Below, piece after piece: positions 32,683 to 56,639 of a stretch of DNA of 64,000 bases (positions are counted from its first letter, which is position 1; each line of letters starts with the position of its first letter). The translations under genes were made by a program, and so were the position numbers. Origin of the DNA: the human T2T-CHM13v2.0 reference genome, Homo sapiens. The notes beneath the pieces were generated by a model. That model ran no database searches. It was not told the origin of the DNA and worked only from the letters and a program-made list of their open reading frames with translations. Location: NCBI RefSeq assembly GCF_009914755.1, contig NC_060928.1, one strand, 5' to 3'.

Positions 32683-34231
32683 TAAGACAAAGCCAGATTT
32701 ATTAAACTGAGATTTATTGACGAATTCCACTGCAGAATTAGCATAAAAACTATTAACTACTTCACTCTTTCATAAAAATCTACATTTTTTCCAAAGAGGA
32801 AATCTATTGTGTTCATCAGAGCTGCATAAAAGTCTGTGAATATACATCAGTCTAAGAACTTTTCTCCCAATTGGGAAGAGGTAAGACATTGGCAATAATG
32901 GTATATGTATGTACTAATGTAAATTATTATTTGTAGATGTGTATCTACTCTTTTTAGTAAATGTTTTAGTTGAAAATATAAATGATTTTTTCTTTGATAG
33001 TGTCATTTTGGTACATAAACAGTAGGAATACATTTAAAACATTAATACTTTGTATTAATGATGGTGAAAATTTTTTTGGTTTAATGCCATGAATAATTCA
33101 GTTAAGCGAGGTTTATTCTTGCATGGCATCACTAGTCATCTATCTTCCCTAATTATTTTAAGTAACAGAAACCTTGCCATTGAGTGGGTTGCGTTATTGT
33201 AAGCAAGTGTTTGCCAAACTTGCCATTTCAAAAATTTACCATTTCATTCCCCACTTACGCTATATTTAATGATTTTTAATTAGTACTATTCAGTATGTTT
33301 TAAATAGAAAGTTTATGTAATCATAATCCAATCACAGGTTTGTTATGCAAGTATATGTACATTTTAAAAATAATTATTAATATAAGCATACAATGCAACT
33401 TCATGTACTGCATAAAATCATCTTGTACTTTTATTTGTTCATTCACATACAGAATATTTATTAAACATGTACTACATGGGGGATATTATTCCAAGGCACT
33501 GCAGATACAAGAGTGTACAAACTGAGGAATTTTCTGACATTACAAATAGCAATGTACATTATTTTTAAAAATTGTCTTTATGGTGAAGAGAAAAGATACT
33601 CTTTAGCAAAACATAGGGAACAGTGGGTTTAATTCTTCTTTGGTTTCTCTAGGGAAACCCCAAGAGAAAACCTATCTCAAAACCTATCTGTAATATTTTT
33701 TGTATGATTTATAGGCTAGATCCCTTCTCAGTTGTACTGAATTTTTTCCATTAAGATTTCTCTGCCAAATGTAAGGTGTTTATCATATTTATCATCTTTT
33801 TTTCTGGAAGCAATTAACATTCAAGAGCTAAAAAAAGAGAATTTATTGATTTTCCTTGATAAAAGTCCTTCCCTTTTACTTGTTACTCTAATAATTATGT
33901 TCTTAATATAAGAGAAATCTAAAGTCGTCATGACACTCGATAAGTAATACTGAGGTCTCGATATCCTCCAGACCCTGGTTTTGTCTGTCTTTCTTTTTTA
34001 AAATTCATTCTGAAGCATTCTAGCAGCACATCTAATAAGGCAAGATTTATTTCAAAATCAAAGAATTAATTAATAGAGACTAGTGCTTATTCCTATTATT
34101 TTGTGGTACTGTGTAACACTGCTAATTTTCAGCTAAATCAAACTTGCAATTAGGAAAAAGTAGTGCAAAAGTTATTACACACAAAATCCAAGTCATTTAG
34201 GGGGCTGAATGTGGCTGTCAGAACTATAGTG

Positions 34232-35646
34232 CATCAAGGAAAAGAGTCAAATTCTGTAAAATGTATAAAAGGTTTATATTGAGCCAAATATGAGCGACCA
34301 AGGCCCGTGACACAGCCCCAAGAGGTCCTGAGAATACGTGCCCAAGGTGGTTGGGTAACAGCTTGATTTTGTACACTTCAGTGGGACAGAAGTTACAGTC
34401 AGACATTGATCAATACATGTAAGGTGTACATTGGTTTGGTCCTGAAAGGCTGGATGACTTGAAGTAGAGGAGCTTCCAGGTCATAAGAGGATTCAAAGAT
34501 ATTCTGATTGGCATTTGGTTGAAAGAGTTATGTTATTATCTACATACCTGGAATGAACAAATAGGAGTGTCTGGGTTAAGATAAGGGGTTGTGAAAACAA
34601 CATTCTGCAGGTAGCAGTCTTTGGAGAGAATAGATGGCAAGTGTCTCTAATAATACCAAAAAAGGTGAAAGACTCTCAGTCTCTCCTGGATCAAAAAAGA
34701 CCTGAAAAGGTAAGGGGATTCTCTGCAGAGTGTAGATTTTCCCCCACAAGAGACAACTTTACAGGAGAATTTCAAAATATTCAAAGAAATATATTTTTGA
34801 GTAAAAATACTTTGATTTTTTTTAAGGAAAATGGATGTGCTGTGTTCAAGAATAGGCCAACTCAAACAGGTAGTCCAACATGAGTCAGCGAGTTTGGAGC
34901 ACAGGCACACAACTCTAACCATTATGTAACCTGTTTGTGTAAGCTCATACTTGGCTCTGAGCCACTATTTTCTTTAAGGAGTATAACTGTCCTGCCAGAA
35001 ATGGGGAGAGAGAGAGAGTAAAGCTGCTGATGCTGTGAAGAGTGCTGCTGCTGCTAATGTGCCTGCATGCATAAGACAGCCAGCCAACTTGGAGGCAGAC
35101 AGGAGAGATCAAGGAAGTGTCATGCACTCCAGAGAGTGCAGCTGCAGTTGTGGCGGCAGCAGAAGCTGCAGAGCTGCTGCTGGAACAGGAGAGAGAGAGT
35201 AAAACTGCTGATACTGTGCACAGGGCTCTCAGAGAGAGAGAATAAGGCCATGTCCCAGCTACCTACCCTCCCCCAGGTGTTCTTTCAGCTACCCACTACC
35301 CCTCCAACCACTCCCCTCGGACCTCAGCTCGGGCTATAACCTGACAGATTTCTTTCAGGCCTGTTATTATACCTGATGTGATGCTATTCTAGAGTCAGAT
35401 TGGAATTTGGTATTTTATTGTTACAGACTGCTTTGTCAGTCTTGAGATCTCTGTTTTAATCGTAATGCAGGTCAGTTTTGCCTGAATTCCAGAAGGACAG
35501 GAGTGTAATGGGGTATGTCTGACCGACCCATTTTCCTATTATGGCCAGAATTACTTTTTCAGGTTTACTTTGGAATGCCCTTGACCTAAAGGAGGGATCC
35601 ATTCAGTTGGTTGGGGGGACTCTTAGAATTTTATTTTTGGTTTACA
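34232..35646 (-). mobile_element. MER4-family ERV1 solo LTR, interrupted by a second LTR
   Basis: gaaaagagtcaaattctgtaaaatgtataaaaggtttatattgagccaaatatgagcgaccaaggcccgtgacacagccccaagaggtcctgagaa...ttttatttttggtttaca; TSD agtg. Confidence 0.75.
34821..35346 (+). mobile_element. LTR18-like (ERVL) solo LTR nested in MER4
   Basis: taaggaaaatggatgtgctgtgttcaagaataggcc...catgagtcagcgagtttggagcacaggcacac...cggacctcagctcgggctataacctgaca; gattt flanks both sides. Confidence 0.7.
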
Positions 35647-36149
35647 AGTGTCAGCAGGTAATGTTTTTATTTTTTACTTCACATTTTTTCCCTACTCCTT
35701 GTCAATATATATCTGAGCTCTGTCTCCAGGCTTATACCAATTGATGGCAATTGCCTTTACCTGGTCACTTTCTCAATATTGAAGTAGTAAATCAGTTGTT
35801 GGTAGGCCACTGACACAAGAAACACCTGGAGTAGACAGACGTAGCAGGATGCACCTGCACCCCAGAAAGGGATATTCCAGGAGGGACCCAAAACACTGTT
35901 CTGGGGCACAGCCTAAGGGCTTCCTATGGAGAAATTAGTATTCACACTTTAACTCTCCTTCAATTTGGAGTAATCTGAGACTCAGAGGCCATATATGGCT
36001 AGCAACTGTAACCTTAGAAAGGCTATACATTTTAGCTCTACCAGAATATTTTTTGCTTATTTATCTGCCTGCCCCCCTATGGACATTAAAAGCTCTGATA
36101 ATGAAGGTTTTAACTTATTTAATTCTTAATAAATTCCTATATTGGGTAA

Positions 36150-36468
<319 letters not shown>

Positions 36469-36619
36469 TAGGCCTTTATTTCTAAGTAGGAGTGGTTTCC
36501 AGTAACTGTCAGAAGTATTTTGAAAAGTGTTTTGTTGCAAACACTGACGTGTCAGTGAAGTAAACTTGCTTCTTATTTTCCTTCCAAAAGGAATTTAAGA
36601 AATAATTTGGGTTGATTAT

Positions 36620-37366
36620 TGTGAAATGGGAGTGTTCCCAGACCCCCCCTTGCAAGACCTGTGACAGGTGTGTCTGTTCAGCCACCACGCCTGCTCAAAC
36701 CTCTTACAGAAGGGGAAGCATGCAGATGGGCAGGTACAACAGCCAGAGCAAGCGCTTTAGGGCTCCAGCCCCATGGTAGCATCTACGGGTGGGTGCCCAT
36801 GACTCCCAAAGCCCAGGTGGGTGTGTATTACAGTGCACTCTTTTAGCTTTGCCATCTGTAGATGGCTTAAGTGTTAACCTCCTCAGTGCCCTCTTGGTAC
36901 CCTGGTCCTTGTCCGGCACCCAAGAAGAATCAGGTTGCACACAGATGAATAAGGGGGTTTTATTGAATGGTGGAGGTGGTTCTCAGTGGGATGGGTGAGG
37001 AGCTGGAAAAGGGATGGGGAGTGGGAAGATGATCTTCCCCTAGAGTTTGGCCATCCAGTGGCTGATCTCCTCTCTGATCATCCCCAGCCGAATTCCTCTC
37101 AGCGTTCACGTGCTGTTTCTTTGCCATGCCATTCTGCCATTCTTCTGCTCTTCTGTTCCTCTACTCATCTGCTTCTGGAGCTTGGGGTCTGGGGTTTATA
37201 TGGATACAGGATAGGGGGGCATGGTGGGCCAAAAGGCAACTTTTGGGCATAAAAACAGGAATGCCTGTTCTCATTTAGGGCTATGGGTTTCCAGGCTTGA
37301 GGGTGGGGCCTTTGCAGAGGAACCACTCTCTTCTACCTAGTATTTCCCTGTCTCCTGTTTGTATCA
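36620..37366 (-). mobile_element. ERV1 solo LTR (LTR1/LTR27/MER52 group)
   Basis: Minus strand starts tgatacaaacaggagacagggaaatactaggtagaagagagtggttcctctgcaaaggccccaccctcaagcctgg. Confidence 0.7.
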
Positions 37367-38438
37367 GTAGTTTTTCATTTAAATAAAATTAATTTGATTT
37401 TATCTAGTGCTTTGGGGTCTGTGTGTTTTTGTAACATAAGTATTTTTTATTCTTAACAGAAAGTTGACCTGACTAAAGAAGGAAAGCAGTACCTAAACCA
37501 GCTTGCAAAATTAAACCATAAGTTCTATTTATGGGATCAAGTCTGAGGACAAATAATGTATTTTAAAATCTATTATGTGGGTTTTCAAACTTATAGTACA
37601 CAAAGAATCACCTGGAGATAGTGTTAAAATGCAGGTCTGGTGTATCACCAAGATTCTGAGTCAGCAAGTTTGGCAAGAGGGATTCACAATTTGAGTTTTA
37701 ACAGGCACCAGTTGATGCTGATTCTGATGGTCTCATGTGGCACCCTCAGAGGAACAATAGAGTAAGTTTTACAACTTATTTGAACTTTACAAATGATTTT
37801 CTGATATTCATTTCTACGTAAGTTGAATTATCTAATCAGCTGCAAACAGCTGATAATTATCCACTGCAGATAATTATTTAATTATTTATAGAAGAAAGTA
37901 AAAGAACTATATAAATGATGATTTATAGAAAAATCATTTGAAATAATGAGTTTAATTTTATTATGTGAGTTGTTATTCATTAGAGAACTTGTAAATTTGT
38001 GATAAAAGAAATATTCCTATATTTCTTCATAACAGTGTGAACAAAATAAACAGAGGAAAACACACAGGTGGTCTCTATTAGTTTATAGTAGCTTTTGAGC
38101 TACTATAAACATATTCATATAAAAAACAAATGCAAAGTTTCACTTTTTAGTTTTTACTCCCTTATCTATGGTGATGAATTTTCCCTGCCTTTCACATACA
38201 AATGAAATACGAATCAAAGTGAACTGATATTTAAACACAGGACATTAACTATAGAAATACCTACTGTTAACTCACTTTAAAGATGTTATGAACTAAAAAT
38301 AGCAGCTTAATGTATCATTTACCTATAATTTTGTCTCCATTCTGTTTAATCATAATTGTGGCTAAGTGTATTTTTATACTCAATCTTGAATTATAAAATT
38401 AAGATAGAAACTATTCTCTCACTTTCTTTTTCTTCAAG

Positions 38439-41400
38439 AGAGCTGATACATCCAAAGAGGTAAGACACTTTCATTCACTGGAAAACTGGATAATAAAACA
38501 TGTATTGAACTTTTAATAGTTTCTTAATTTTTCAAAGAAATGTCATGGGTAAAGAAGAAAATTCTATGTAAGTATTTTCCTGATGATGTTGTGGAGTCTA
38601 AACATGTTTTATTCTCCTGGAAGAATCAATACTTACTTCTGAAATATGTGCATATTATGTATGGCTAATGTTGCACATTGATTGCATTTATTTACAGTAC
38701 ACTGACAAAAGTCTCAAATGTCTTGTAGAATTTAGATGGAAATTCGTAATACCAGTCTGAGGAAGATAATTATTCTCTGAGAACTTAGGTTAACATTGCC
38801 TGGTGAATAATTCCATTGGCCTAAAAAATGGTTCAATTTCAATTCTATTAAGTATAATATATAACCTACCATGCATAGATGCTGGCAATCACATACCTAA
38901 TAGAGTAAGTTCCCACCTTCTCATTTTTGGATGGTGATAAAGTCATTAAACTGGCTATCATATGTAAGATAGAAAATTTTATTTATTTTAACATATTTCT
39001 TAATGGGTGTATGCTTGATGTCTCATATTATTTTGAACTGTCATATCAATGTGATAGGATTTTTAAAATTATCCTTACTAATACAATAAATATATTGTTA
39101 AATATGGCACTGTATTAGTCAGGGTTCTCCACAGGGACAGAACTATAGGATATGTGTATATATGAAAGGGAGTTTATTAGGGAGAATTGACTCACACAAT
39201 CACAAGGTGAAGTCCTATGATATGCCATCTGCAAGCTGAGGGGCAAGGAAGCCAGCAGTGGCTCTGTCTCAGTGGCTTCAAAAGCCACAAAAGTAGGGAA
39301 GCTGATGGTGCAGCCTTCAGTCTGTGACCAAAGGCCCAAGAGCCCCTGGCAAACCACTGGAGTAAGTCCAACAGTCCAAAGGCTGAAGAACCTGGAGTCC
39401 GATATTCAAGGACAGGAAGCATTCAACATGGGAGAAAGATGAAAGCTGGAAGACTCAGCCATCCAGATTAGTTCACCTTCTTCCCCCTGCTTTTGCTAGC
39501 TAAGAGGCAACCAACTGGATGGTGCCCATTCACACTGAGGGTGGGTCTTCCTCTCCCAGTCCACTGACCCAAATGTTAATCTCCTCTGGCAAAATCCTCA
39601 CAGATGCACCCAGAAACAGTACTTTGCATCCTTCAATTCATTCAAGTTGACACTTAATATTAACCATCACAAGCACCCAATACAAAGATGCACAAAGAAG
39701 GAAGGTAGCTACTCGTGTTAACAGAAGAGAGTATTAAAGAATGTAGGAGTAGTGGCATGGAGAATCTCCACCTCCCCATAATACCCAAGGGTGGACAAAG
39801 TAGTAGCTAAAGGTATTATTTTTAAGAAGACTTCAGCCCAGTTTGGACTGATTGCCTGTAATCAGTGTTCCCACATGTATAATAAAACCACAAACTCTAA
39901 CAAACAGTGAAAATGTAAATGCTTTATCTTTTTTTTTAATCTTCTTTTAACCATTTGTGTTTTAGAAAAGGGACAATATCACTAATAGTTCAAGTGATTA
40001 TGTACATTATATAGAAGATACTAACAACTTTAACAATCTAAGCTTTTAAGAACAACAATTGTGAAACCTTTGCATGGTCATTGTCTGAATTCCCTGCAAT
40101 TTTCTATCTTCTTTTGTGTGTATCCAGGGGAGGTATCACTAATATAATACATATTTATAGTATCAGCTGTATCCAGCATACCCAACGTATTATCCTTATT
40201 CCTATCCATATGCTTACAATGCATCTTAGTAAACACAGGACATAATTACAAAGGTAAGCTAAGTCTAGTGACATGTTTTTACGATCCAGAAATATCAATG
40301 CTGACAGTTAAAAGAGGAAAAACAAGCACAAAGCATAAAACCAACAGCAGTTCCAGTCTAAAAATTGTAGTCTTCTGAAACCCCTTGAGATGTATTCATT
40401 TATTTAAGTGCTTCTGAGATAAAGCCTCTGTCCCACTATGGTTAAAAAAGTCTGGGCTCTGTGGAGAAGAGACCCTATCTTGGCCCTGACAACTACTGTT
40501 GTTAACTGTTGTTGTTTTTAAACCTCAGTTTTATCATCAACAAAATATGTATTAATATAATACTTAAGAACTTTAGAGAATTGGTGACGCTTCTGAAAGA
40601 TATGTGACATAAAATCTCTTGATCAGAAAAATGTATAGTTTTGATTGCAGGGTTTTCTGCCACTAAATCTGTCCCTGGATGTGGTTTAAATTTTGTGCCC
40701 CAAAATGTAATCTTTGGAAAAGCTGCATAAGCACCATCTGTAACACGTGAGAAATTTACATGTTATGGCCTAAGTAACTCTAATAAGCAATTGCCACGGG
40801 AACTAACGTAATACTAACAAGGGAATATAAAAATATTATCAATTTCCATTTTAGAAAGTGAGTTTTATCTTTCTGTGTACAAAATTAGTTGTTCCGAATT
40901 CTATGAGAGATTAAATATTTCACTACAAAATAAAGCAAACTTTTGGAGATAAAAGAGGACTGTTCTGAAATTCAACGTTGAAACGGTTCATAAGATTGCA
41001 ATTATTTTTCAGAGCATTTGGGAGATTGTATTCCAATAGGATTCCCTGTATCCATTAATGATATGGGAAGGAGACTGAACTTGATCCCCTAGGCATTAGA
41101 TAATAGCTAATGACATTTAATCGAGAAAGGATATATTACAAAATTATTTTGGGAAGTTAAATATGAATGCAATACTTAAGCTGTATGTAAGTCAGAGAAT
41201 AAAAGATGATGACGGAAAAACAAAAGAAATTTACATTAGAATTGCAGACAGTGGATAATAACTTTTGTTTATTCAGATACTCATTTAATGAGTATTTAAT
41301 TGTCTCCTGTGTGTCAAATGCTATTTTGGGTGCTGCATTATATTAACTAAAATTATCTATAAATATCTACTCTGCACCAGGCCAGAACCTACATGTATTT

Positions 41401-41660
41401 ACAGGAAGAAACATTTTACAGGCAATCTGTTATTTTCTTTTTCTGTACATATTTCAGTGGCAAATCCAGTTTCTACATGTGTATTTTCATCCCTGATGCC
41501 ACATCACGCTACCACCAGTTCTTGCAAAATTGACAGAAAGGCAATGTGAAATAAAACAAAGGCCATAATACTTGCCTTCTTAGTTGACCTTTGATTAGAT
41601 AGTTCTAATATCAAACTGCTAAACTGGTTTTACTGCTGTTCCGAGTAATAAAAAACTATT
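38439..41660 (+). pseudogene. Histatin/statherin/histatherin-like SCPP pseudogene: exon relics at 38439-38459, 38538-38567, 40128-40253 and ~41457-41660
   Basis: aag|RADTSKE|gtaag; aag|KCHG*RRKFY|gtaagt; cag|GRYH*YNTYL*YQLYPAYPTYYPYSYPYAYNAS*|gtaagc. The last exon resembles STATH exon 6 and has an AATAAA near 41646. Introns align with STATH introns. Confidence 0.88.
39111..39671. mobile_element. MLT2-type (ERVL) solo LTR inside the pseudogene intron
   Basis: tgtattagtcagggttctcc...gagaattgactcacacaatcacaaggtgaagtcc...ttcaagttgacacttaatattaaccatcaca; near-TSD ggcac/agcac. Confidence 0.85.
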
Positions 41661-44079
41661 CTTTTCATAAAAGTAATGGATATCAGCACATTTTTATGTA
41701 TGTGCTCTTTATTTCTATTTTTGTGTATTTCAGACATAAAACATTTCTTTCGTCACTTTGTTTTTCAAGTTTCAGTAGAACTGACCGAAGCACCTTGTAT
41801 CAGAGGTCCTGCGAAGTCACATATTTCTCATTTGGTCTGTCATCTTATATCTAACCAACATATGGACTTCAAGCGCAGCTAGATTATTGCACGTATTTAC
41901 TCTAACATTTGATTTGCTCCTGGATTCCTTTGTCACAGCACATATGCTAAGCCTCCAAAGTCCTCACTTTTCTTATCTCAGTCCCTGCAGACCAGAAGAT
42001 AACCCCCATGTCACTCCATAGCTTTAGGCAAGAATTCAGAACACAACAATGTTCTCCATGAGTTTGTCAGCAATTACTTTCCTTCATTTATACATTGAGT
42101 GACACTCGATGGCCTGACAAGGCCCTCTTTAGATACTGCACATGCAGCAAGGTCTAAGAGAGATGAAAGTTGGCCTTCAGGCAGTTTACACTGTAGTTGG
42201 GAGATAGAAACAACAAGTGAAAAAATAATACATAGTATCTCAAGTAATCATAAGTGTGCTAAAGATGAAGAAGGCAGGACTAAGGCAAAGAGGCAATTTA
42301 AAATAGGATGGTCAAGAAAAGCTTCTCTGGCACAGTGGCATTTTAGAAAACATATGAAGTGCTTATGTTCATAAGTTAGCATGAAAAAAAAAATCCAGCA
42401 GAAGAAATAGCAGGGCTGCATTCTACTGTGGTAGAAATACATTTATTGCGTTTGGGAAAACTCTAATGAAAACAGCATGAATAGAGAAGGAAAGATGTGG
42501 ATTAAAATAAACTATATTACAGAAAAGAGGTGAGGAGATGATTGAAGCGCCATAGGTCAAAGATAGCCTTTGGATTGAGATAAATGCCATTGGATCAGGC
42601 ATTGATCTGATTTATATTTTGGAAGGGAGGCAAGGGTTGAAGCATAGATCCCTTACTTTGGCATTACAGAACCCTGCTGGCCCTTAATAGTTTTACATCC
42701 TTTTGTTCTACCTGTTCATTCTTTTTTTCCATATTCTCCTAACCTACAACTTAATATTTATGATTTAGTACATACTTTCAATAACTCAAACAACTCCAGT
42801 GAAGTCTGAATTTGATTAATTATATTTGCTAAAATCTCAATCCTACTAATTGTTAAATCTTCTTACACTGCATCTCTACCAAGAAAACGCAAATGTACAA
42901 AGAAAAGAATTTATTTTATGTTTTATAAATGTGGCATACAATGTTGCTAAGCAAATAATATTCTTGTATTTAGTTTTATAGCTCTCACCCTTTCCCTTCA
43001 ATAAAATGTCCAAATGTATCATTAAGTTTTCTGAAATATCCAACTCATCTTACCTTGTAGTCAGTTCCAGAAAACAATCTACTCTGAATTAAAAACTGAG
43101 CCCATTTGATCTAACCCATTTAAGCTCTCTACTTTCACTTGTTTATAAATTAATCTATACTTGACCAGATTTGTAACTCTCTGCAACATCTTGATCATTG
43201 ACATGATTCTAATGTTTTTCCAGAGATATATTCCTGTTGTTCCTGGTTTTGTATTTCCTCCTTTATACTTGGAGAATTTTAAAAATTAAGATGTTCTTTT
43301 TCATGAAGATTATGATGATGAAAATTATAATAATGATAGAATCTAATATTTGCATTTGAGTCATTTTAATTTACAATGTGATTTTTATATACTCTCCTTT
43401 AAGTTTCACGTATTACTGTAACATTTTATAAATAAGAAAATTTTAGTTTAAAGACATAAAGCAAACTAAGCAACCTATAAGGTCACTGCAACATGGTAAT
43501 TAACATTTCCTTCCTGATGTTTCATCCTCTTGGCTTCCACAACATACAAACAGCCGAGAAATACCTCTTCTGCTATTCTTTTCCATCACAGATTTTTTTC
43601 ATAGACTTTCTATTTTCTCTTACACATTACATCAGTGCTCAGCAGGATATCTGTCCTCAGCCTATTCTCTTCTGACTCTACACATCTTGATTGTATAAGC
43701 TGTAATAATCTCATAGTTTGATTACAATCAATAAGATGATAAGTGCCCAATCTGCAACTCCATTGTTGACCTTCTTCTCCCAATTTTAGACTCATGTTTT
43801 CCTGGGTTTCTCTGTCTTAGCCTTTATCCTTGTCTGATTCACAAATTATACTGTAAACTCCTTAAGAACAAGAGTAAAGCTTCTCATGTCATGTCTCCAG
43901 AATAAACAACATTCTATCTATCTAGTAGATTATCATATGTTGTTCAGCATTTGTCAATCATATATGTCATTTTAGTAATTCAAACAGGAACATAATATAA
44001 CATTTTTAGTTAAATAAATAAATATCATGGATATTGGTCATAAATGGTTTCATGTTTCCATCATAAGAGAATTGCAGAA

Positions 44080-44190
44080 TAAGGAGAAGGAGGAGCAGCA
44101 ACTGGAGCAGCAGGAAGACAAGGAGGATGAAGAGGAAGAGGAGAAGGAGACGGCAGTAAAGAAGATAGAGAAGCAAGATTGAGGAGAGCC
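44080..44190. repeat. GA-rich low-complexity tract
   Basis: (GGA/GAA/GCA)-type triplet-like run. Confidence 0.8.
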
Positions 44191-44907
44191 CAGCATAAAC
44201 ATCACTACAAATACCCATTCATGGGTTGTATCCTTAAGCAAAAATTGTATTGCCTCACCTGTGATAAAGCAGTAGTTCTTTGTTGATGTTTCCTTTGTAA
44301 CGAAAGGTCATGACATTTTCAAAGAGAACAGTGTTTGGCATAGAGGATAAGATATCTGTTTTCTTTAATTATAAAATATGAAGTCATGTTCTGGTTCATC
44401 AGTCTTCTAAATTGGTCTGCTCTTCCTGGAGGGTGGGACCATAACTAACACGAGAAGGTCACTCCTTTGTTTCTAGTCTGCTATCCTTGTTTGACCTATC
44501 ATACATAATCCCCACACTTCCTAACTTGGGGAAGCAGAAAATGATGGGTGGACTAATGCCTACATGTTGGTATTCCAACATAACATGTAGATGAGTTAAG
44601 TTTAACTGTAATTTTAAAGTGTGTATATTAAGATGTATCAATATTTCTTACCATGTAGTTTGCTGTTTGTTAGTGCCTTTGGGCTATTAGTTTGCTTTAT
44701 GTTCACTAGAACATGAATACCTTAGATCTACTAGAACAGTACCTAGTATTGTTGGATAAATGAAGTGGTGAAGAAAACCAGAGGTAAGAAAGGAGAAGAG
44801 AGGGAGAAGAAAGAAAGAAGAAAAGAAGAAAATCATTTGACTTTCCCCAAGTAATCGAAGCAGTTTATTTTTAAAATCAGATATAGTTCAGTAGTTACTG
44901 AACCATG

Positions 44908-45208
44908 GGCCAGGCACAATGGCTCATGACTGCAATCCCAGCACTACTTGGAGGCTAAGGCAGAAGGATTTTTGTGGTCAAAAGTTCAAGACCAGCATGG
45001 GCAACATAGCAAGACCAAGTCTCCACCAAAAACAATTTAAATTAAATTAACCAAGAGTGATAACACATGTCTGTAGTCCCAGCTAAACATGAGGCTGAGG
45101 TTGTAGGACCACTTGAGCCCAGGAGTTCCAGGCATCTGTGAACTATGATCTCACCAATGCACTCAAGACTGTGCTATGCAGCAAGACCCCATCTCTGGAA
45201 AAATAAAA
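44908..45208 (+). mobile_element. AluJ with TSD
   Basis: Degenerate dimer; TSD tagttactgaacc at 44892-44904 and 45209-45221. Confidence 0.88.
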
Positions 45209-45561
45209 TAGTTACTGAACCCTATGTAACTTTTTTCCACTCAGAATGTAAAGAGATTGTGTTTGTTTTACACATGAGAAGAAACTTTGTATCTATAATG
45301 CTTATAAATCTCATGACAAAAGAATAAGAATAATATCTATCTAATTTAATTTGAATTATTTATTTGCCTTAAGAAATGATTTATATTTTCTTGTATATTA
45401 CCCAGAGAGTAATCATAATTTCCAGTAAGGCTGTTCCAATACAGCATAAAAATTTACCTAATAAATACTTCCTTAAAAAATCTGATACAAAATTAAACCA
45501 CAAATTATCTTTACTGGTTAAAGCCTAAGGATAACTAATGCATTCAAGAGACAAATATGTG

Positions 45562-45704
45562 GTTGTTTTTTTTTTTATGTTTTTGTGGAGATACGGGTCT
45601 CACTATGTTGCCTAGGCTATTCTTGAACTTCTATGCTCAAGCAATCCTCCTGCCTCGGCCTCCCAAAGTGCTGGGATTACAGACATGAGCCACTGAGACC
45701 AGCC
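45562..45704 (-). mobile_element. Alu monomer (FLAM/left-arm-like)
   Basis: ggagatacgggtctcactatgttgcctaggct...ctcccaaagtgctgggattacagacatgagccact. Confidence 0.85.
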
Positions 45705-46730
45705 TTGTTTCAAACTTCACAGTACCCAAAGAATCACCTGGAGATAATGTTAAAATGCAAACGCCTTAGGACAACCCCAAGATTCTGACTCAGCAAGTTT
45801 GCGAAGGTGGACTAAGAATTTACATTTCCACAGGCTCCAGCTGATGCTGTCTGTGATGTTCCCATATGGCACACTCTGAGGAACAATGCACTAGGCTGTA
45901 TAACTTACCTCAACTTTATATATAAGTTTTTGATATTCGTTTCTTAGTACATTGAGTTATCCAACCAGCAGTGAGTAGGGTAATTTTTACACAAATTTTC
46001 CTAGGAATGTAATGAAAACATTTTTTCCTTCACTCTAGTGTAATCATGTCAACACATGGCTGCTATGGAAAAATATGTAGCCTTAAAAACTCCAGGAAAT
46101 TAAATTGAATTTCCAAATACATATATTCAGTCATATGTGAGATATGTATCAGTGAGCACTTAGAGTCATTTCACCATAAATATAATAATTTTTTATCATA
46201 TAGTACCCAAAAGATTACTGAATTTGGCAAATGTTTACGTTCACTTTGTAACTTAAAATATTCTAAAGTCAATAGAAGATGGTAAAAGTATGAGATAAAT
46301 AATGATTTGAAGAAAAACTCTTGAAGTATATGAAGACTGTAATTTTATTATGCCAGTTACCACGAGTTATCAGAGAACATGTAAAATCTTGATAACATGG
46401 TAAGTATTATTTGTGTCATAGAGTTGTTCCACCTTGGACACATACTTGTGGAAACATCTTTATCACTGCAATTATTTCTATGCCTGGTTTCCTCCAGCAT
46501 GCTTTTCTGTCATCTGACTCACTCAGCGCTAGACTAACAGTGGGATTAACATGCAGTGGGTACAGTTGTTTCCTGGTTACTTTGTCTTCACAATCATCTA
46601 TTGCAAAATCACTTTGTTACGGTTATTTTTATCATTTGTAGAGACAGATTTTGGGCATTACTTTTAGTTTCCATAATGTGATCTCATAATTGCCATTATT
46701 TAACAAAAACAAATGGGGGACTTCAGAGTG

Positions 46731-46738
46731 TTTAAATA
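46731..46738 (+). promoter_or_regulatory. STATH TATA-like box TTTAAATA
   Basis: About 25-30 nt upstream of exon 1. Confidence 0.65.
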
Positions 46739-46759
46739 CATTGGCCCTCTAGGGTAGCA

Positions 46760-46820
46760 CATCATCTCTTGAAGCTTCACTTCAACTTCACTACTTCTGT
46801 AGTCTCATCTTGAGTAAAAG
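46760..46820 (+). other. STATH: STATH exon 1 (non-coding)
   Basis: ...cttcacttcaacttcactacttctgtagtctcatcttgagtaaaag|gtaata; TSS approximate. Confidence 0.8.
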
Positions 46821-47721
46821 GTAATATGTTCATGTATAATCGAATATGTTGTCTTAATCTAGAGTGTTGCTTCCTAAAATCTTTTGAAAACTAATTATAA
46901 AAATGTGTATTTATGTAATGATAATTTCTCATAAAGAAACAATTGAGAGAAATGATGACCTTCTTAGGATCTGAAGGTAAGTTGAGAATCTGAATAACTA
47001 TACATTGAAATCAGCAATCATCATGCAAAGTAAATAATGTGGAATATGGAGGCATATTCCAACTTCTCTCCTGATGGAACTTCTGAAAAGCTTTTTATTT
47101 CCTTGTCTACGTACTGGCATCTACTCTGCTACTTACTACTTTTACCTTTATTCGAAGTTCATATTTTAAGAAAATAGCATACGTTCTCTTTTTTGCAAAT
47201 GTATATATTGTTTCACAAGTTTAACTTTTAAAAATTTACTTTTTTCCCATAAGTAAACATTTCTCACTACCTTTTCATTGACCTTTCCATCATTTTAAAC
47301 AGTTATGTCATTCTGCATAATAAAAAATGTTGTATAACAGTCATGCTTTACTGCCTTACTGTTTTATATTACTTAAGTTGTTTTCATTCAGTTGTGATAT
47401 GGCAGAAAACAAAGATTTTACTATTTCATATTTTTATTATTTTTCATTGGGGAAATATTTTTTTAAAACCATGACATATATATTTATATATCTATGTCTA
47501 TATATCCATCTTTCAGTTTATCAAGGTTAGTAAAACAAAACTACTCTTCTATGAGCATTTTTTGATTCCATACTTTCAATAAAATTTACAGGTATAAAAT
47601 ACACTAAAGTTTTTATGCTTTTTGCATCATAAAATGACTGATGGGTAGGTTTATCTATCAGGTGATAGAAAAACCCCAAAGTACATATTATTTTTACACT
47701 TACTCTAATACCAGAAATTTC

Positions 47722-48040
<319 letters not shown>

Positions 48041-49232
48041 AGAAATTTCAGTTTGAATAACTGAGGCAAATCAGTGAATAAGTAACAAAGCAAATGCCAT
48101 AAATCATGAGTTCTGCTTTATGTTTTGGAGATTTGGGGTTATTAATAACAGTAATTTTTTTTATAATTAGGTAAAAAATATTCTTGTAATGTTTTATCAC
48201 AAGTTATTGGTAAAAGAGATTAAAATAATGAAGACCATTACCTTTATATGAATTACTCTATAGTTTTCAATAAACAGGTAAAAATGTCATTTATTTGTAA
48301 CTCTTGTGGCAATTATGTGTTTCACTGAAAATGTCTTTATTTAGATGTTTATAATTTACAAATAAATAATCTAACGTTTTTTGTTTAATAACAAAGGAAC
48401 TGGGTTAACTGGCTTATACTGTTTATGATAACATATCACAGTCCCAGATAAGGTTAATTTTGTTGAATGAGATTATTTAAAATATTAAGTCATCTTCACC
48501 AATTCAACTTCTCAGAGGAGGTACGAATATTTTCTCTGTGACTTCTTATCAGTTTGATTGTTCTCTACCCAGTATCATTAATGTTCTAATCTGAAGGTGA
48601 CCCCATTTTTGCAACTCTCAAGACAGAAATCTGGCTCATTTTCAGTAACATTATAAAGCGATTGCCCATTGCTGGTCATTCTAACATCCAAACATCTCTT
48701 TACACTGTACCTTAAATATCATCCCTAATGTCATTATTTAAGGCGCCCCATAATATCCAGTTCTATCTTCCCTACATTTTGAACTGTTCCAGTTTTATCT
48801 TCTGATAAACTGCTCCAGTTTTATCTTCCCTACATTTTGAACTGTTTGCACTTTCAATATGGTATCCTCCCTCTTTTTCATTTTCTTGCAGTCACCCAAC
48901 ACCTCTTTACTCATCCCGCATAATCCAACTCAAGCTTTACTTTCTTCTTTACCTTCATACCCCTATTCTCTTGGTCTGCGTAAGGTGTTGATTTGTGTGT
49001 TACTCTAATGCCTTAGCATTTCCATATCAATACACTCACTTTTACTTATCAGTGTCTCCAACAAGTCTCCAAGTTTCATGATGTCAGGCAATGGGTTTTA
49101 ATTGTCTTTCTATCTGGAGTGTGTCTCCCAGTGCTTTGGAGCGTAGTATAATCAATAAACTTTTGATGGGCGAATGCAAGAAAAAATGTGATACTGAATT
49201 TCCACATATGTTTTCAGAGAACCCAGCCAACT

Positions 49233-49283
49233 ATGAAGTTCCTTGTCTTTGCCTTCATCTTGGCTCTCATGGTTTCCATGATT
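49233..49283 (+). CDS. STATH: STATH exon 2 coding part MKFLVFAFILALMVSMI (whole exon 49218-49283)
   Basis: cag|agaacccagccaactATG...ATT|gtaagt. Confidence 0.97.
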
Positions 49284-50461
49284 GTAAGTATATCAGGACA
49301 TTTGAAGAATATGTTCTCAGTACCTATCCCAAGAGTCTCTCTATTCCTTGTGTTCTGGCATATATTGGTGTTTACTTGAATACAGCTTTATATGTTTAAA
49401 TGTTTCCATATGAACTTTTTTTTGTACTAACCTACATAAGCTATATAAGGATTTAGAATAAATAGTCATTATTCATCTACAGACACTAAAGTATATTTAG
49501 CTTAGTGTGAAATAAAAGAAAGTTTTACTGAACTTCTTAAATATGTGGAACTGAGAGCTTCTAAAAGTATCTTTAAACATGTAATGCTCTAGACAATCTG
49601 AAGTTAGAAATCTCAGGAATGAACTAGGTGCACTTGAGTGGAATTCAAGTATTAGAAGATGTCAAAGTAGAAATTTTCAAGTCATTCCTTGCAAAAACTA
49701 ACTTAAAATTAGTATACAATTATTTAGCACACACTTTCTAAAATAAAGCTGCTTATTTTTAACTATAAAACAAAACTTCAGATCTATGACATGTTATGAG
49801 TTCCCAGCTTTTATTGTCATTTACTACTATGTATCACTAGGTAAAGCACTTGACTTCTCTGGAGCTCTTTCTTCTACTCTACTTCCTTCTATTTCTCCTG
49901 TCCCTTTTCTATGACATTAGTAGGAAACTGGCCATGAAAGAATAAAAATAGTTCAACTTACCTGGTAAATTCTAACAGATATTTCAAAAACTAATTTGAT
50001 TATAAAATCACAGTATACCACATTATTTGTTATAAAAGGATAGGTGTCTAAAAAATAAAAAATAAAAATGTAAGGAAAACAGAGAAAAACATAATGCTTG
50101 TCTCTGTCAGTAAATAAAAGTTATGTGTAAGTAGCCTTTGAGCTGCTGAAAACATATTCTTATGAAAAAATACAAAGTTTCACTTTTCATTCACCAATGA
50201 TAACCATTTACTCCCTTTTACACACAAAACAAGTATAAATCCAAATAAATTTATATTTGAATATAGCACACTAATTACAGAAAAGCATACTCTTAACTCA
50301 TTTTAAAGATGTCATGAAGCAAAAATAACTAATTTAGTGTCTATCGATGATTTGCCTACATCCTGTTTACTCACAACTGTAGCTGCTGAGTTCATTTTTG
50401 TACTCAATCTGGAATTATAACATTAAGATACTAACTATTGTCTAATTTTCTGTTTTCTAAG

Positions 50462-50482
50462 GGAGCTGATTCATCTGAAGAG
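50462..50482 (+). CDS. STATH: STATH exon 3 GADSSEE
   Basis: aag|GGA GCT GAT TCA TCT GAA GAG|gtgagt. Confidence 0.97.
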
Positions 50483-50574
50483 GTGAGTCATTTTCATTCA
50501 CTGGAAAACTTGTTTTCAGTTTTGTCCTCCCTACATTTGTATTGAATTATTAAACTTTTCTTCATTTTTCACAG

Positions 50575-50604
50575 AAATTTTTGCGTAGAATTGGAAGATT
50601 CGGT
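50575..50604 (+). CDS. STATH: STATH exon 4 KFLRRIGRFG
   Basis: cag|AAA TTT...GGT|gtaagt. Confidence 0.97.
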
Positions 50605-51657
50605 GTAAGTGTTCTCTGATAATGCTGTGTAGTCCAAATAAATTGTGTTCTCTGATTACTTATTCTTCTAGAAGAACCAATACTTATTTCTCAAATATGT
50701 GTAGTAGTTGCAAAAGTGTGCTTTGTTTTCCTCTATTTATGATACACAGGTAACAGTCACAAATGTATTGTGTCCTAACAACATTTAAGTTGAAACTCAT
50801 AGTGCCAACCTGAAGAAACCAGTTACTCCCTGAGCCCTCAAGTATCATCTCCTAAGTAATCACTTTGACCTAAAAAATAGTTGAAATTCTAATTCTGTTA
50901 ATTATAATATATGCCTCATGGAGCATAAAGGCTGATAATTACACATAAAATATGGTAAGTTTGCACCTTCTGATTTTTTTTGACGGTGATAAACTCATTA
51001 AATTAAACAGGTCATGATAAATGAGATAGCAAATTTCATTTATTTAACATTTTTCTTAATGTATGTATCTTGATGTCCCAGTATGTTGACATATAATGTC
51101 AATGTGATAGGGTTGCAAAAGATCCCCTAACTAATATAGTGAATACATGGATTAAAATAACACCAAATAAAAAGATACTCTAAAAGGGATGATGGTTATT
51201 TGTGTTAACAGAAGGAAGAAGTATTAAGGAATGTAGGAATCGTAAGAGACAGTAAGCTCATTAAAAGAGTGACTTGAAGAAACACCACATAAGCTGAATT
51301 TAGTAAATGTCTCCTTCCCATAATACTCAAAGGTGGGCAAAATGGTTGCTGGGAGGTAGTATTTTGAAGAAAATTTAAAACCTCTTTGGAGTGATAGCCT
51401 ATAATCGGTGTTCCTGCATGTGAAATAAAACCACAAAACTGTGAACATGCAGTACAAAGGTAAACACTCAATCATTTTTACCTGCTTTTAAAATGTGTTT
51501 ATAACCAAAAAGAAAAATCTAATTGAAAGTTTGGAAAAAAATCTTATAAGTAATATGTAAGTTCCTAAAACTTTAACAATCTAAGCTTCTAATAAAAACG
51601 CTTGCACTGTCATTATCTCAATTTTCTGCAATTTTCTTTCTCCTTGTGTGTATACAG

Positions 51658-51744
51658 TATGGGTATGGCCCTTATCAGCCAGTTCCAGAACAACCACTAT
51701 ACCCACAACCATACCAACCACAATACCAACAATATACCTTTTAA
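51658..51744 (+). CDS. STATH: STATH exon 5 coding part YGYGPYQPVPEQPLYPQPYQPQYQQYTF* (exon ends at 51777)
   Basis: cag|TAT GGG...TTT TAA...gag|gtaaga; total 62 aa, the statherin precursor. Confidence 0.98.
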   Translation, partial: YGYGPYQPVPEQPLYPQPYQPQYQQYTF

Positions 51745-52985
51745 TATCATCAGTAACTGCAGGACATGATTATTGAGGTAAGATGGGTTTAGTGACATTT
51801 TTTTTACTTTCTGTATCAGTGCTGACAGTTAAAAGAAGAAAAACAAAAACAAGACATTAAACCAACAGCAGTTCCAGTATAAGAAAGCAGCCAGCTGTAT
51901 AGCTCCTTGAAATGTATTAATTTATATAAATGCTTCTGAGATAAAGTCTCTGTCCTGCTATGGTTAGAAGGCAGTGTTATAGAGTGGGGGACACCAGGGT
52001 TTGTATGCTGGCCCTGACAACTACTAGTTTCATGACTTTGAACTACTCCTAATGCTCCTGAACCTCAGTTTTCTCGTCAAAAAATTGTGTATTATGATAA
52101 CACTTAAATGTGCTTTTTAGAATTGGTGACACTTTTGAAAGACATATCACATAAAATCTCTTGATCAGAAAGGTTTGTAGTTATAACTGCAGGGCTTCCC
52201 TGCCACTAAATCTGTACCTAGGTGTTGCTTAAAGTTTTCACTCCCAAAATGCAATCTTTGGAGAAGCTTCCATCTGGGAACCATCTGGGAACTTGTGAGA
52301 AATTTGCATTTTGTACCCTAAGTAACTCTACTGAGCAATTACTATAGAAATTATTAACATAATGCTAACAAGAAAATATGGAAATGTTATCAATTTCTTT
52401 TTAGAAAGTCAGTTTTACCTATCTCTACACAACATTAAATGTTCTAAATTCTATGAAAAAATAATATTTCAAAACAAAATAGAGCAAACTCTTGGAGATA
52501 AGGGAGGATTGTTCTACAAAGTTAAAATAGTCCAAAGGATTTCAATTATTTTTCAGTGCATTTGGGAGATTATATTCCAATTCAATTCTCTATTGCCATT
52601 AGTGATACAGGGAAGAGCCTGAACTTGATCCCCTAGGTTTTAGGTAATAGCTGATGACATTTAATCAAGAAAAGATGTATTGAAATATTATTTAGAGGAA
52701 ATGCATATAAATGAAATGTGTAGGCTATATTTAAGTAGAAGAATAAAATAGTATGATGATTGAAAAATAATTTAAATTGTAGATGCTGAATGATAATTTT
52801 TATTTATTCAGGAACCAATTTAATAATTGTTTAATTGTCTACTCTGTGTCAAATATTATTTTGGGCCCTGCATTTTATAAACTATAATTGTATATAATAT
52901 CTACTCTGTACCAGGCCAGAATATAAATGTGTTTACAGGGGTAAAAATTTTACAGATAATCTGTTATTTTTTTTTTTCTGTGCAG

Positions 52986-53250
52986 GCTTGATTGGCAAAT
53001 ACGACTTCTACATCCATATTCTCATCTTTCATACCATATCACACTACTACCACTTTTTGAAGAATCATCAAAGAGCAATGCAAATGAAAAACACTATAAT
53101 TTACTGTATACTCTTTGTTTCAGGATACTTGCCTTTTCAATTGTCACTTGATGATATAATTGCAATTTAAACTGTTAAGCTGTGTTCAGTACTGTTTCTG
53201 AATAATAGAAATCACTTCTCTAAAAGCAATAAATTTCAAGCACATTTTTA
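52986..53250 (+). other. STATH: STATH exon 6 (3' UTR) with AATAAA at 53228-53233
   Basis: Long polypyrimidine tract, tgcag|gcttgattggc; polyA signal; end approximate. Confidence 0.85.
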
Positions 53251-56200: not shown

Positions 56201-56639
56201 CTTTATGTTCACTAGAACATGAATATTATAGAAGTACTAAAACAGTGCCTTACATTGTTGTTTAAATGGTTAGTGAAGAAATAAAGAGTGAAAAAAGTAG
56301 AGAAAGACAGGAAGGAAAGAAGAAAGGGGAGAAATCATTTGACAACTCAAGCATATCCAAAGCAGTGTTTACCCTTCAAAGTCAGACATATTTCAAGTTA
56401 CTGAACTATGTATCTCTTTCCCATTAAAAAGTGATGAGAGTTTGTATTATTTTGAGCACAAGAAGAGACCTTGTATCTCCAGTGCTTAGAATAAATCTAT
56501 TTTAAATTGAGTTATTTATTTGCCTTAAGAAATAATTTATGTTTTTGTATTTATCCAGAGAATAACCATTATTTCCAATAGGACTGTTCAATTATAACAT
56601 AGAAGCTTTACCTTATAAATATTTTCCTAATAAATCTGA

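What the first reader, a model, noticed from the sequence alone, without database searches (positions are those of the whole stretch)
38439..41660. Decayed histatin/statherin chimera (candidate human histatherin, HSTN, pseudogene) between CSN2 and STATH
Seen: four exon relics with intact AG/GT sites, with the same phase-0 sizes as STATH exons 3 and 4 (21 and 30 nt). Exon 3-like reads RADTSKE. Exon 4-like reads K-C-H-G-*-R-R-K-F-Y, which resembles histatin (KRHHGYRRKFH) rather than statherin (KFLRRIGRFG); TGT and TAA are each one substitution from CGT (R) and TAT (Y). Exon 5-like is Tyr/Pro/Gln-rich like statherin, with stops TAA and TAG where Gln codons CAA and CAG would fit. Known (recalled): cattle have a milk gene, histatherin, in this interval with a basic/His N-terminus and a YQPY-type C-terminus. 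Inference: this is a lost antimicrobial or mineral-binding peptide gene, possibly near the ancestor of both STATH and HTN. Its mature peptide can be reconstructed as roughly DTSKE-KRHGYRRKFY-GRYHQYNTYLQYQLYPAYPTYYPYSYPYA.
Basis: partly seen in the sequence, partly recalled or inferred. Interest (0 to 1): 0.9.

Follow-up and report, generated by a model that had tools for sequence, protein, structure and literature searches.

The report
Decayed histatin/statherin-family gene copy
Between the human beta-casein and statherin genes lies the dead remnant of an old extra copy of the statherin/histatin saliva-peptide gene, whose build (histatin-like front, statherin-like tail) helps show what the ancestor of these genes looked like.

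Summary
Window 37506-44991 is a 7.5 kb tandem copy of the STATH/HTN gene unit, collinear with STATH through introns and 3' flank at about 70% identity.

It is an unprocessed pseudogene:
- About 3.7 kb holding the proximal promoter, exon 1, intron 1 and the signal-peptide exon 2 is missing.
- Exon 4 carries one stop and exon 5 carries two.
- Exon sizes (21 and 30 nt) and the AG/GT sites of exons 3-5 are kept.
- Relic exon 3 is exactly exon 2 of the predicted lncRNA LOC105377269.

Exon 4 is histatin-type: 25 of 30 nt match HTN1 and 16 of 30 match STATH. Exon 5 is Tyr/Pro-rich, like statherin.

The human cluster holds two more relics, outside the finding. One lies between HTN3 and HTN1 and has the same build. 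The other lies between STATH and HTN3 and has no coding exons left. Intron trees put the finding with the HTN3-HTN1 relic, apart from STATH+HTN.

All old lineages are about equally distant (K2P 0.28-0.36, against 0.10 for HTN1/HTN3). That is far older than anthropoids.

The position matches bovine HSTN, but no cow sequence could be obtained, so orthology is untested. I found no paper describing the relic.

The parts
37506..37840 (+). Retained 5' flank block of the gene unit, about 1 kb upstream of where the start site would be. It holds exon 1 of lncRNA LOC105377269 (37629-37761).
   Evidence: It matches the blocks upstream of STATH (45708-45969, 76.7%), relic C (56643-56972, 79.9%), HTN3 (78089-78411) and HTN1 (100145-100454). 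In the whole genome only the local cluster copies match over more than 60 bases. The GTAAGT donor at 37762 is specific to this copy.
38006..38086 (+). Junction of an internal deletion. The counterpart of STATH 46396-50129 is missing: proximal promoter, exon 1, intron 1, exon 2 with start codon and signal peptide, and most of intron 2.
   Evidence: Collinear matches stop at 38005 and resume at 38087. Short-word blastn with STATH exons 1 and 2 found only chance-level hits of 10-16 nt (E 0.009 or worse) anywhere in 16524-46700. The same queries found the HTN3 and HTN1 exons at 88-90% identity.
38439..38459 (+). Exon 3 relic: 21 nt, phase 0, RADTSKE, with AG and GT kept. It is identical in span to exon 2 of LOC105377269.
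   Evidence: Identical bases: 17/21 to STATH, 16/21 to relic E, 14/21 to HTN1. The lncRNA exon coordinates come from the hub annotation.
38538..38567 (+). Exon 4 relic: 30 nt, phase 0, KCHG*RRKFY, histatin-type, with AG and GT kept. The stop TAA stands where HTN1/HTN3 have TAT.
   Evidence: Identical bases: 25/30 to HTN1, 24/30 to HTN3, 23/30 to relic E, 16/30 to STATH.
39103..39673 (+). Copy-specific interspersed repeat of 571 bp (TG...CA ends, LTR-like) inserted in intron 4.
   Evidence: It is absent at the aligned site in STATH, HTN3, relic E and HTN1. Genome search gave 5109 first-look candidates, of which 40 were scored: the window's own copy plus 39 others, full length at 82-86% identity.
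40128..40253 (+). Exon 5 relic. It holds 33 codons plus the terminal stop, is Tyr/Pro-rich, has in-frame stops at codons 5 (TAA) and 11 (TAG), and keeps AG and GTAAGC.
   Evidence: translation; alignment. There is no gap against relic E over 105 nt (73/105 identical). Against STATH 50/99 are identical, with a 6 nt gap.
41451..41826 (+). Exon 6-like 3' UTR relic. The aligned acceptor CAG has become CAT, with an AG 7 nt downstream. AATAAA lies at 41647-41652. The end coordinate is approximate.
   Evidence: Six-copy alignment and reading.
41827..44991 (+). 3' flank of the unit. It holds exon 3 of LOC105377269 (44068-44230).
   Evidence: Collinear with the STATH 3' flank up to 56410 (64.8-74.5%) and with relic C 73694-77127 (73.8% over 3518 columns).

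Best explanation
This is an unprocessed (tandem-duplication) pseudogene of the statherin/histatin gene family.

Origin and death. A complete gene unit once stood here: 5' flank, six exons, introns and 3' flank. It died by an internal deletion of about 3.7 kb that removed the proximal promoter, exon 1, the start codon and the signal-peptide exon 2. It also carries one stop in exon 4 and two in exon 5. It cannot make a secreted peptide today.

Residual activity. What remains is RNA-level. A donor site that arose in its retained 5' flank, together with the still-working splice sites of relic exon 3, is used in the predicted lncRNA LOC105377269.

Build. The dead gene combined an acidic Ser-x-Glu exon 3, a basic histatin-type exon 4 and a Tyr/Pro-rich statherin-like exon 5. 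This is the 'histatherin' build.

Relatives. The same build is seen in a second, unannotated relic between HTN3 and HTN1. On intron trees the two relics group together, apart from STATH+HTN3+HTN1.

Age. The old lineages split at about the same time, roughly three times deeper than the HTN1/HTN3 split. That is long before anthropoid primates and near the placental radiation.

Inferred, not shown. The mixed build is the ancestral state of the family. Statherin is then a copy whose exon 4 diverged fast, and histatins are copies whose exon 5 diverged and shortened. While alive, the gene would have encoded a small secreted mineral-binding and/or antimicrobial peptide.
For: Paralogy including introns:
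- Searches give collinear matches of 1-3.7 kb at 65-75% identity with E down to 0.
- One search found six matching places in the whole genome: the query itself and five matches at four other cluster copies (HTN1, relic E, STATH, and HTN3 in two pieces).

Lesions:
- Exons 1 and 2 are missing although both flanks of the gap are retained.
- Stops are shown.

Build:
- Exon 4 identical bases: 25/30 HTN1, 24/30 HTN3, 23/30 relic E, 16/30 STATH.
- Exon 5 aligns to relic E without gaps (73/105) and is Tyr/Pro-rich like STATH exon 5.

Tree:
- Concatenated 2406 columns give ((A,E),(B,(D,F))) with UFBoot 100.
- With exon columns removed (2229 columns) the two alternative topologies are rejected, p-AU 0.026 and 0.019.

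Distances:
- K2P is 0.308-0.320 from A to each other lineage.
- STATH-HTN is 0.300-0.306 and HTN1-HTN3 is 0.099.

No recent conversion: no 100-column window of A exceeds 84% identity to any copy.

STATH exon 4 is derived: 13-16 of 30 identical to the others, against a background of 73-75.5% (binomial P 0.0002-0.011).

lncRNA use of relic exon 3: hub annotation. The donor specific to this copy is shown.
Against: - One of the three alignment segments (40522-41406) weakly prefers A with STATH (UFBoot 72; not significant). The copies may therefore be mosaics.
- The tree is unrooted, so 'ancestral build' depends on the root not lying on the STATH or HTN branch.
- Evidence that the copy was ever under selection is weak. 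P for no indel in 156 coding bp is 0.04-0.09. P that all 12 splice bases are unchanged is 0.14-0.17.
- Dating rests on one local calibration (HTN1/HTN3) and on lineage path lengths that I recall and did not compute.
- No other species was examined.
- The lncRNA is a predicted model, and no expression data were seen.
Confidence: 0.88

Rival explanations
1. Strict orthologue of bovine histatherin (HSTN). The gene existed in the common ancestor of primates and cattle, stayed alive in ruminants and died in the primate line.
For: - Same position: cow order CSN1S1-CSN2-HSTN-STATH-CSN1S2 (supplement table of PMC12457735), and the relic lies between human CSN2 and STATH.
- The depth of the split (ML root-to-tip about 0.16-0.17) is near the human-to-boreoeutherian path length as I recall it (about 0.17).
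Against: - No cow sequence was seen, so neither the build nor the grouping was tested.
- The date range also allows a split on the primate stem.
- Five roughly equidistant old lineages exist in human, so position alone does not give one-to-one orthology.
- PMC12457735 (passages) argues that HSTN is an artiodactyl-specific duplicate of cow STATH.
Confidence: 0.4
2. Lineage-specific duplicate made on the primate (or euarchontan) stem. It is unrelated one-to-one to cow HSTN, which arose independently.
For: - If the HTN1/HTN3 split were as young as the ape/Old World monkey split, the local rate would be about 1.5 times average. The old burst would then fall on the primate stem (plus recalled path lengths).
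- PMC12457735 favours independent origins.
Against: - It requires the histatin-type exon 4 combined with a Tyr/Pro tail to arise twice, or to be ancestral anyway.
- The recent literature itself reports STATH-like and HTN-like sequences scattered over mammals.
Confidence: 0.45
3. Recent chimera. A recombination or gene conversion between an HTN copy (exon 4) and STATH (exon 5) built the mixed gene.
For: Exon 4 resembles HTN and exon 5 resembles STATH. Part of intron 5 (40521-41090) is somewhat closer to STATH, at 0.79-0.82.
Against: - No window exceeds 84% identity to any copy.
- Exon 4 identity to HTN1 (25/30) is not above the intron background (P 0.19).
- Relic E has the same build independently.
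Confidence: 0.04
4. Still a coding gene or micropeptide source.
For: Splice sites of exons 3-5 are intact, and exon 3 is spliced in a predicted RNA (hub annotation).
Against: There is no start codon or signal-peptide exon, and three in-frame stops lie within 65 codons.
Confidence: 0.02

Closest known systems
Bovine histatherin (HSTN), a milk and saliva peptide gene between CSN2 and STATH
   Same: Same position in the casein/SCPP cluster. Papers describe it as mixing histatin and statherin features, which is the build seen here.
   Different: HSTN is intact and expressed in lactating udder (PMC4219721 passages). The human copy lacks exons 1-2 and has three stops. Sequence likeness to HSTN was not tested.
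Human STATH (statherin), the neighbouring gene at window 46761-53367
   Same: Collinear gene unit with the same exon sizes and phases. Exon 3 is 17/21 identical. Both have a Tyr/Pro/Gln-rich exon 5.
   Different: Exon 4 is unlike (16/30). STATH is intact. Intron distance is K2P 0.32.
Human HTN1 and HTN3 (histatins)
   Same: Exon 4 is 24-25/30 identical, reading H-G-Y/stop-R/K-R-K-F. Intron distance is about the same as to STATH.
   Different: Histatin exon 5 is shorter and His-rich, not Tyr/Pro-rich. Histatins group with STATH, not with this relic, on intron trees.
Relic E, an unannotated second relic between HTN3 and HTN1 (chr4 73378722-73381400; extended window coordinates 94722-97400)
   Same: Same build: exon 3 RADVSEE, exon 4 KYHECKRKFL, exon 5 ERSNQHQPYPDYWPYPAYPPYYLYPYP*. 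It also lacks exons 1-2 and is sister to the finding on the tree.
   Different: Its exon 4 donor is lost (GT to TC). It has only one premature stop in exon 5. Its 3' part is a younger copy of relic C's tail (85-90% identical).
CSN1S2AP (human casein alpha-S2-like pseudogene in the same cluster)
   Same: An unprocessed pseudogene of a secretory calcium-binding phosphoprotein gene that is alive in other mammals (hub annotation; Table 1 passage of PMC12457735).
   Different: It belongs to a different subfamily, is annotated and is transcribed. It was not examined here.

Membership tests
STATH/HTN/HSTN gene family (SCPP cluster, 4q13) | Collinear homology of the whole gene unit, introns included, to family members | tested here: met
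   1-3.7 kb collinear matches to STATH, HTN3 and HTN1 at 65-77% identity.
STATH/HTN/HSTN gene family (SCPP cluster, 4q13) | Phase-0 mini-exons of 21 and 30 nt followed by a larger last coding exon | tested here: met
STATH/HTN/HSTN gene family (SCPP cluster, 4q13) | 5' UTR exon 1 and signal-peptide exon 2 | tested here: not met
   none found in 16524-46700, while the HTN controls were found. Read as loss by deletion, because both flanks of the gap are kept.
Unprocessed pseudogene | Introns retained, tandem position, disabling lesions | tested here: met
   Introns and flanks are aligned. There are 3 in-frame stops and exons 1-2 are lost.
Orthologue of bovine HSTN | Conserved position between CSN2 and STATH | tested here: met
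   Cow coordinates in the supplement table of PMC12457735, compared with the hub annotation of the window.
Orthologue of bovine HSTN | Groups with HSTN, not with primate STATH/HTN, in a sequence tree | not testable with these tools
   No cow genome or protein is held. Protein search failed: query too short; no candidate.
Orthologue of bovine HSTN | Duplication older than the primate-ruminant split | tested here: inconclusive
   The depth is 3.2-3.4 times that of HTN1/HTN3. The range runs from the primate stem to before the placental radiation, and the calibration is partly recalled.

The most novel reading that the evidence does not exclude
The 'histatherin' build (acidic Ser-x-Glu exon 3, basic histatin-type exon 4, Tyr/Pro-rich exon 5) is the ancestral state of the whole statherin/histatin family.

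The human cluster is the wreck of an array in which histatherin-type and statherin-type genes alternated: relic A-STATH, relic C-HTN3, relic E-HTN1. That array was laid down about the time of the placental radiation.

On this reading, bovine HSTN is the surviving orthologue. It is neither a chimera nor an artiodactyl novelty. Statherin and the histatins each arose by fast divergence of a single exon.
Probability: 0.4. Interest if true: 0.7.

Novelty: new member of a known kind. Interest (0 to 1): 0.55.

Why it matters
The origin of statherin, the histatins and bovine histatherin is openly unresolved. PMC12457735 (passages) states that the coding sequences are too short to choose between deep ancestry with repeated loss and independent lineage-specific duplication.

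The relics described here carry kilobases of alignable intron and flank. That gives the statistical power the 50-60 codon genes lack.

They already show three things within one genome:
- The histatin-type basic motif is not a primate invention laid on a statherin copy.
- Statherin's exon 4 is the odd one out.
- The family's old splits are about three times deeper than the HTN1/HTN3 split.

For genome annotation, this adds up to three unannotated pseudogenes and explains the odd 21 nt exon of LOC105377269.

Tried and rejected
1. Dating by the copy-specific repeat at 39103-39673. I recalled it as an old mammal-wide LTR. The genome search scored 40 of 5109 first-look candidates: the window's own copy plus 39 others at 82-86% identity. 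It is therefore a younger family and gives no useful lower bound. I withdrew the family name.

2. Fetching bovine HSTN through the protein database.
- One search used the whole exon 5 relic read with X at stops (42 aa). No candidate shared three words. Only proteins of 23-74 residues were searched.
- This says nothing about relatives.

4. Papers not held:
- Kawasaki 2011, by DOI.
- A PMC id that I recalled for the cattle genome paper.
- Rijnkels 2003, Sabatini 1993, de Sousa-Pereira 2013 and Molenaar 2008 were not looked up. They did not appear in the full-text searches.
- Any of these could already mention a human relic.

5. Lemay 2009 (PMC2688934) does not mention HSTN or STATH.

Those files may hold HSTN peptide sequences.

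7. Literature searches for the relic:
- 'histatherin': 12 papers.
- HSTN/STATH/CSN2/pseudogene.
- statherin/histatin/casein/pseudogene/SCPP.
- LOC105377269: 0 papers.
- Pseudogene phrases.
- Guessed symbols: only unrelated hits.
- None described a human relic.

8. Selection tests (no indel in coding parts, splice sites kept) were not significant.

9. A copy of relic E's head after HTN1, expected from a simple unequal crossover, was sought. It was not found in extended coordinates 110000-134000.
Full report
**What is there.**
The window is human chr4 (hub note; confirmed).
- Exon 3-like, 38439-38459: AG | 21 nt | GTAAGA, reading RADTSKE.
- Exon 4-like, 38538-38567: AG | 30 nt | GTAAGT, reading KCHG*RRKFY.
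- Exon 5-like, 40128-40253: AG | 126 nt | GTAAGC, reading GRYH*YNTYL*YQLYPAYPTYYPYSYPYAYNAS*.
- Exon 6-like, about 41451-41826. At the aligned acceptor it reads CAT where STATH has CAG, and the next AG lies 7 nt downstream. So 3 of the 4 relic exons keep both splice sites.

**Not chance, and larger than the stated span.**
- blastn of 34000-46000 against 46001-56000 gives a collinear series through introns and 3' flank:
  - 38087-39102 with 50130-51156 (70.5%, E 7e-124);
  - 39771-43357 with 51313-54895 (70.4% over 3717 columns, E 0.0);
  - 43386-44071 with 54981-55683 (64.8%);
  - 44155-44433 with 55686-55960 (74.0%).
- With the neighbouring genome added, the unit runs from a 5' flank block at 37506-37840 to about 44991.
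- That 5' block recurs about 1 kb upstream of STATH, HTN3 and HTN1 and in one further relic. Elsewhere in the genome only 50-60 base matches are found.

**How it is broken.**
- Between 38005 and 38087 the counterpart of STATH 46396-50129 is missing. The HTN3 counterpart, extended coordinates 78854-82437, is missing too.
- The missing stretch holds the proximal promoter, exon 1, intron 1, exon 2 (start codon and signal peptide MKFLVFAFILALMVSMI in STATH) and most of intron 2.
- Short-word blastn with STATH exons 1 and 2 plus 20 flanking bases found nothing better than 10-16 nt chance hits (E 0.009 or worse) in 16524-46700. The same queries found the HTN3 and HTN1 exons at 88.7-90.1% identity.
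- Both sides of the gap are present, so this is an internal deletion of a once complete unit. It is not a partial duplication.
- Three in-frame stops are added to this.
  - TAA in exon 4 stands where HTN1 and HTN3 have TAT.
  - TAA in exon 5 stands where relic E has CAA.
  - TAG in exon 5 stands where relic E has GAC and STATH has GAA.
- A 571 bp repeat specific to this copy sits in intron 4 at 39103-39673.

**What kind of gene it was.**
- Exon 3 identical bases: 17/21 to STATH, 16/21 to relic E, 14/21 to HTN1, 13/21 to HTN3.
- Exon 4 identical bases: 25/30 to HTN1 (RHHGYRRKFH), 24/30 to HTN3 (RHHGYKRKFH), 23/30 to relic E, but 16/30 to STATH (KFLRRIGRFG).
- Exon 5 aligns without a gap to relic E (73/105). 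It aligns to STATH with one 6 nt gap (50/99). HTN1 and HTN3 are shorter and His-rich there.
- In one search the exon 5 columns were set one base late. Its exon 5 translations are therefore out of frame; searches give the right frame.
- So the copy joins a histatin-type exon 4 to a statherin-like tail.
- Exon 3 keeps a Ser-x-Glu motif (S-K-E). In secretory calcium-binding phosphoproteins this is the Golgi casein kinase site (established knowledge, not tested here).

**More relics (outside the finding).**
I labelled the units A (the finding), B (STATH), C, D (HTN3), E and F (HTN1). Coordinates continue the window numbering.
- C lies at 56633-58822 and 71980-77495. It has a 5' flank and everything after exon 5, but no exons 1-5.
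- E lies at 94722-97400 (chr4 73378722-73381400).
  - Exon 3 reads RADVSEE.
  - Exon 4 reads KYHECKRKFL, with its donor changed from GT to TC.
  - Exon 5 reads ERSNQHQPYPDYWPYPAYPPYYLYPYP*.
  - It has no exons 1-2.
- From about 97400 onwards E continues as a younger copy of C's tail (85-90% identical). That copy belongs to the same block duplication that made HTN1 from HTN3: 73413-94612 with 97400-115442, at 84-91%.
- The hub's list of nearest genes names nothing between STATH and HTN3 or between HTN3 and HTN1.

**Relationships.**
- Three segments shared by A, B, D, E and F were aligned (2406 columns). K2P distances:

| Pair | K2P |
|---|---|
| A-B | 0.320 |
| A-D | 0.317 |
| A-E | 0.308 |
| A-F | 0.314 |
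| B-D | 0.300 |
| B-F | 0.306 |
| B-E | 0.344 |
| D-E | 0.337 |
| E-F | 0.340 |
| D-F | 0.099 |

- ML gives ((A,E),(B,(D,F))) with UFBoot 100 for the A,E | B,D,F split. Segment 1 gives 99 and segment 2 gives 89. Segment 3 (40522-41406) instead gives A,B | D,F,E at 72.
- With exon columns removed (2229 columns) the two alternative topologies are rejected at p-AU 0.026 and 0.019. Segment 3 alone rejects nothing.
- With C included, all old lineages remain about equidistant (0.28-0.36). In the 3 kb tail C is nearer to A (0.294) than B is (0.359).
- No 100-column window of A is more than 84% identical to any copy, so there is no recent conversion tract.

**Direction of change (inference).**
- Histatin-type exon 4 occurs in A, E and D/F. 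Tyr/Pro-rich exon 5 occurs in A, E and B.
- STATH exon 4 is 13-16/30 identical to the others, against an intron background of 73-75.5% (binomial P 0.0002-0.011). A's exon 4 is at background.
- Unless the root lies on the STATH branch (for exon 4) or on the HTN branch (for exon 5), parsimony makes the mixed build ancestral. Statherin exon 4 and histatin exon 5 are then the derived parts.
- 'Chimera' then describes how the gene looks, not an event.

**Age.**
- ML root-to-tip depth of the old lineages is about 0.16-0.17 substitutions per site. For HTN1 and HTN3 it is about 0.05. The ratio is 3.2-3.4.
- My recalled values for the human path length are about 0.033 to the ape/Old World monkey ancestor and 0.055 to the anthropoid ancestor. 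The local depth of 0.05 fits between them, so the local rate is near average.
- The old burst (0.16-0.17) then falls near my recalled path length to the boreoeutherian ancestor (about 0.17).
- The range runs from the primate stem to before the placental radiation. These reference values are recalled, not computed.
- What is robust: the A, STATH, HTN and E lineages split about three times deeper than the catarrhine-stem event, well before anthropoids.

**Was it ever a working gene?**
- Both flanks of the deletion, the kept exon sizes and 6 of 6 kept splice sites at exons 3-5 suggest so.
- The tests are weak, however. P for no indel in 156 bp is 0.04-0.09, from 34-45 gap events per roughly 2200 aligned bases in the three comparisons involving A. 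P that all 12 splice bases stay unchanged is 0.14-0.17.

**Present-day activity.**
- By the hub annotation, exon 2 of LOC105377269 (38439-38459) is exactly relic exon 3.
- Its exon 1 (37629-37761) lies in the retained 5' flank. It ends at a GTAAGT donor that only this copy has.
- Its exon 3 (44068-44230) lies in the 3' flank.
- This is a predicted model, and I saw no expression data.

**Comparison with what is known.**
- Cattle have HSTN (58 aa) between CSN2 and STATH (accession table in the supplement of PMC12457735). It is expressed in lactating udder (PMC4219721 passages).
- It is described as a 6 kDa antimicrobial chimera of histatin and statherin (PMC10074679 passage).
- PMC12457735 (passages) argues that HSTN is an artiodactyl-specific duplicate of cow STATH. 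It says the short coding sequences cannot resolve deep ancestry from independent origin. Its preprint (PMC10888740 passages) says STATH evolved within primates.
- Neither text mentions a human relic. Six full-text searches found no paper that does.
- Rijnkels 2003, Kawasaki 2011, Sabatini 1993 and de Sousa-Pereira 2013 could not be read. Prior description cannot be excluded.

**Verdict.**
- The object is an old unprocessed pseudogene of the statherin/histatin family with the histatherin build, at the HSTN position.
- Orthology to HSTN is plausible (about 0.4) but untested.
- The finding is a new member of a known kind. Its value is that it, with relics C and E, gives kilobases of neutral sequence with which the disputed history of statherin, histatins and histatherin can be settled.

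Noticed in passing
L010:722-3400 (chr4 73378722-73381400; extended window coordinates 94722-97400): Second relic (E) with the histatherin build, lying between HTN3 and HTN1. Exon 3 reads RADVSEE. Exon 4 reads KYHECKRKFL with its donor GT changed to TC. Exon 5 is open for 27 codons. Exons 1-2 are absent. The hub's list of nearest genes names nothing there.
   Followed up: yes
window 56633-58822 and L008/L009 (extended coordinates 71980-77495): Third relic (C), between STATH and HTN3. Its 5' flank block joins directly to sequence that follows exon 5, so exons 1-5 are deleted. It is split by about 13 kb of interspersed repeats.
   Followed up: partly
extended coordinates 73413-94612 and 97400-115442 (L009-L012): Block duplication of about 20 kb at 84-91% identity that made HTN1 from HTN3. 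Its left edge falls at homologous points inside relics C and E, as unequal crossing-over between them would give. The second copy of relic E's head that this model predicts after HTN1 was not found.
   Followed up: partly
window 46761-46820 and 49218-49283, compared with HTN3 and HTN1: STATH exons 1 and 2 (5' UTR and signal peptide) are 88.7-90.1% identical to those of HTN3 and HTN1. Introns are about 73-75% identical and STATH exon 4 is 43% identical. Constraint therefore differs very unevenly between exons.
   Followed up: partly
window 39103-39673: LTR-like repeat of 571 bp (TG...CA ends) with similar 5-base flanks (GGCAC / AGCAC). Genome search gave 5109 first-look candidates; of the 40 scored, one is the window's own copy and the other 39 are 82-86% identical. 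The family was not named.
   Followed up: partly
L008-L009 (extended coordinates 88162-88747): Block of tandem repeats downstream of HTN3 that matches itself at many offsets (70-78% identity).
   Followed up: no
window 40521-41090: In this part of intron 5 the relic is closer to STATH (0.79-0.82) than to HTN3, HTN1 or relic E (0.65-0.78), against the overall tree. This may be an old conversion tract or a mosaic.
   Followed up: partly
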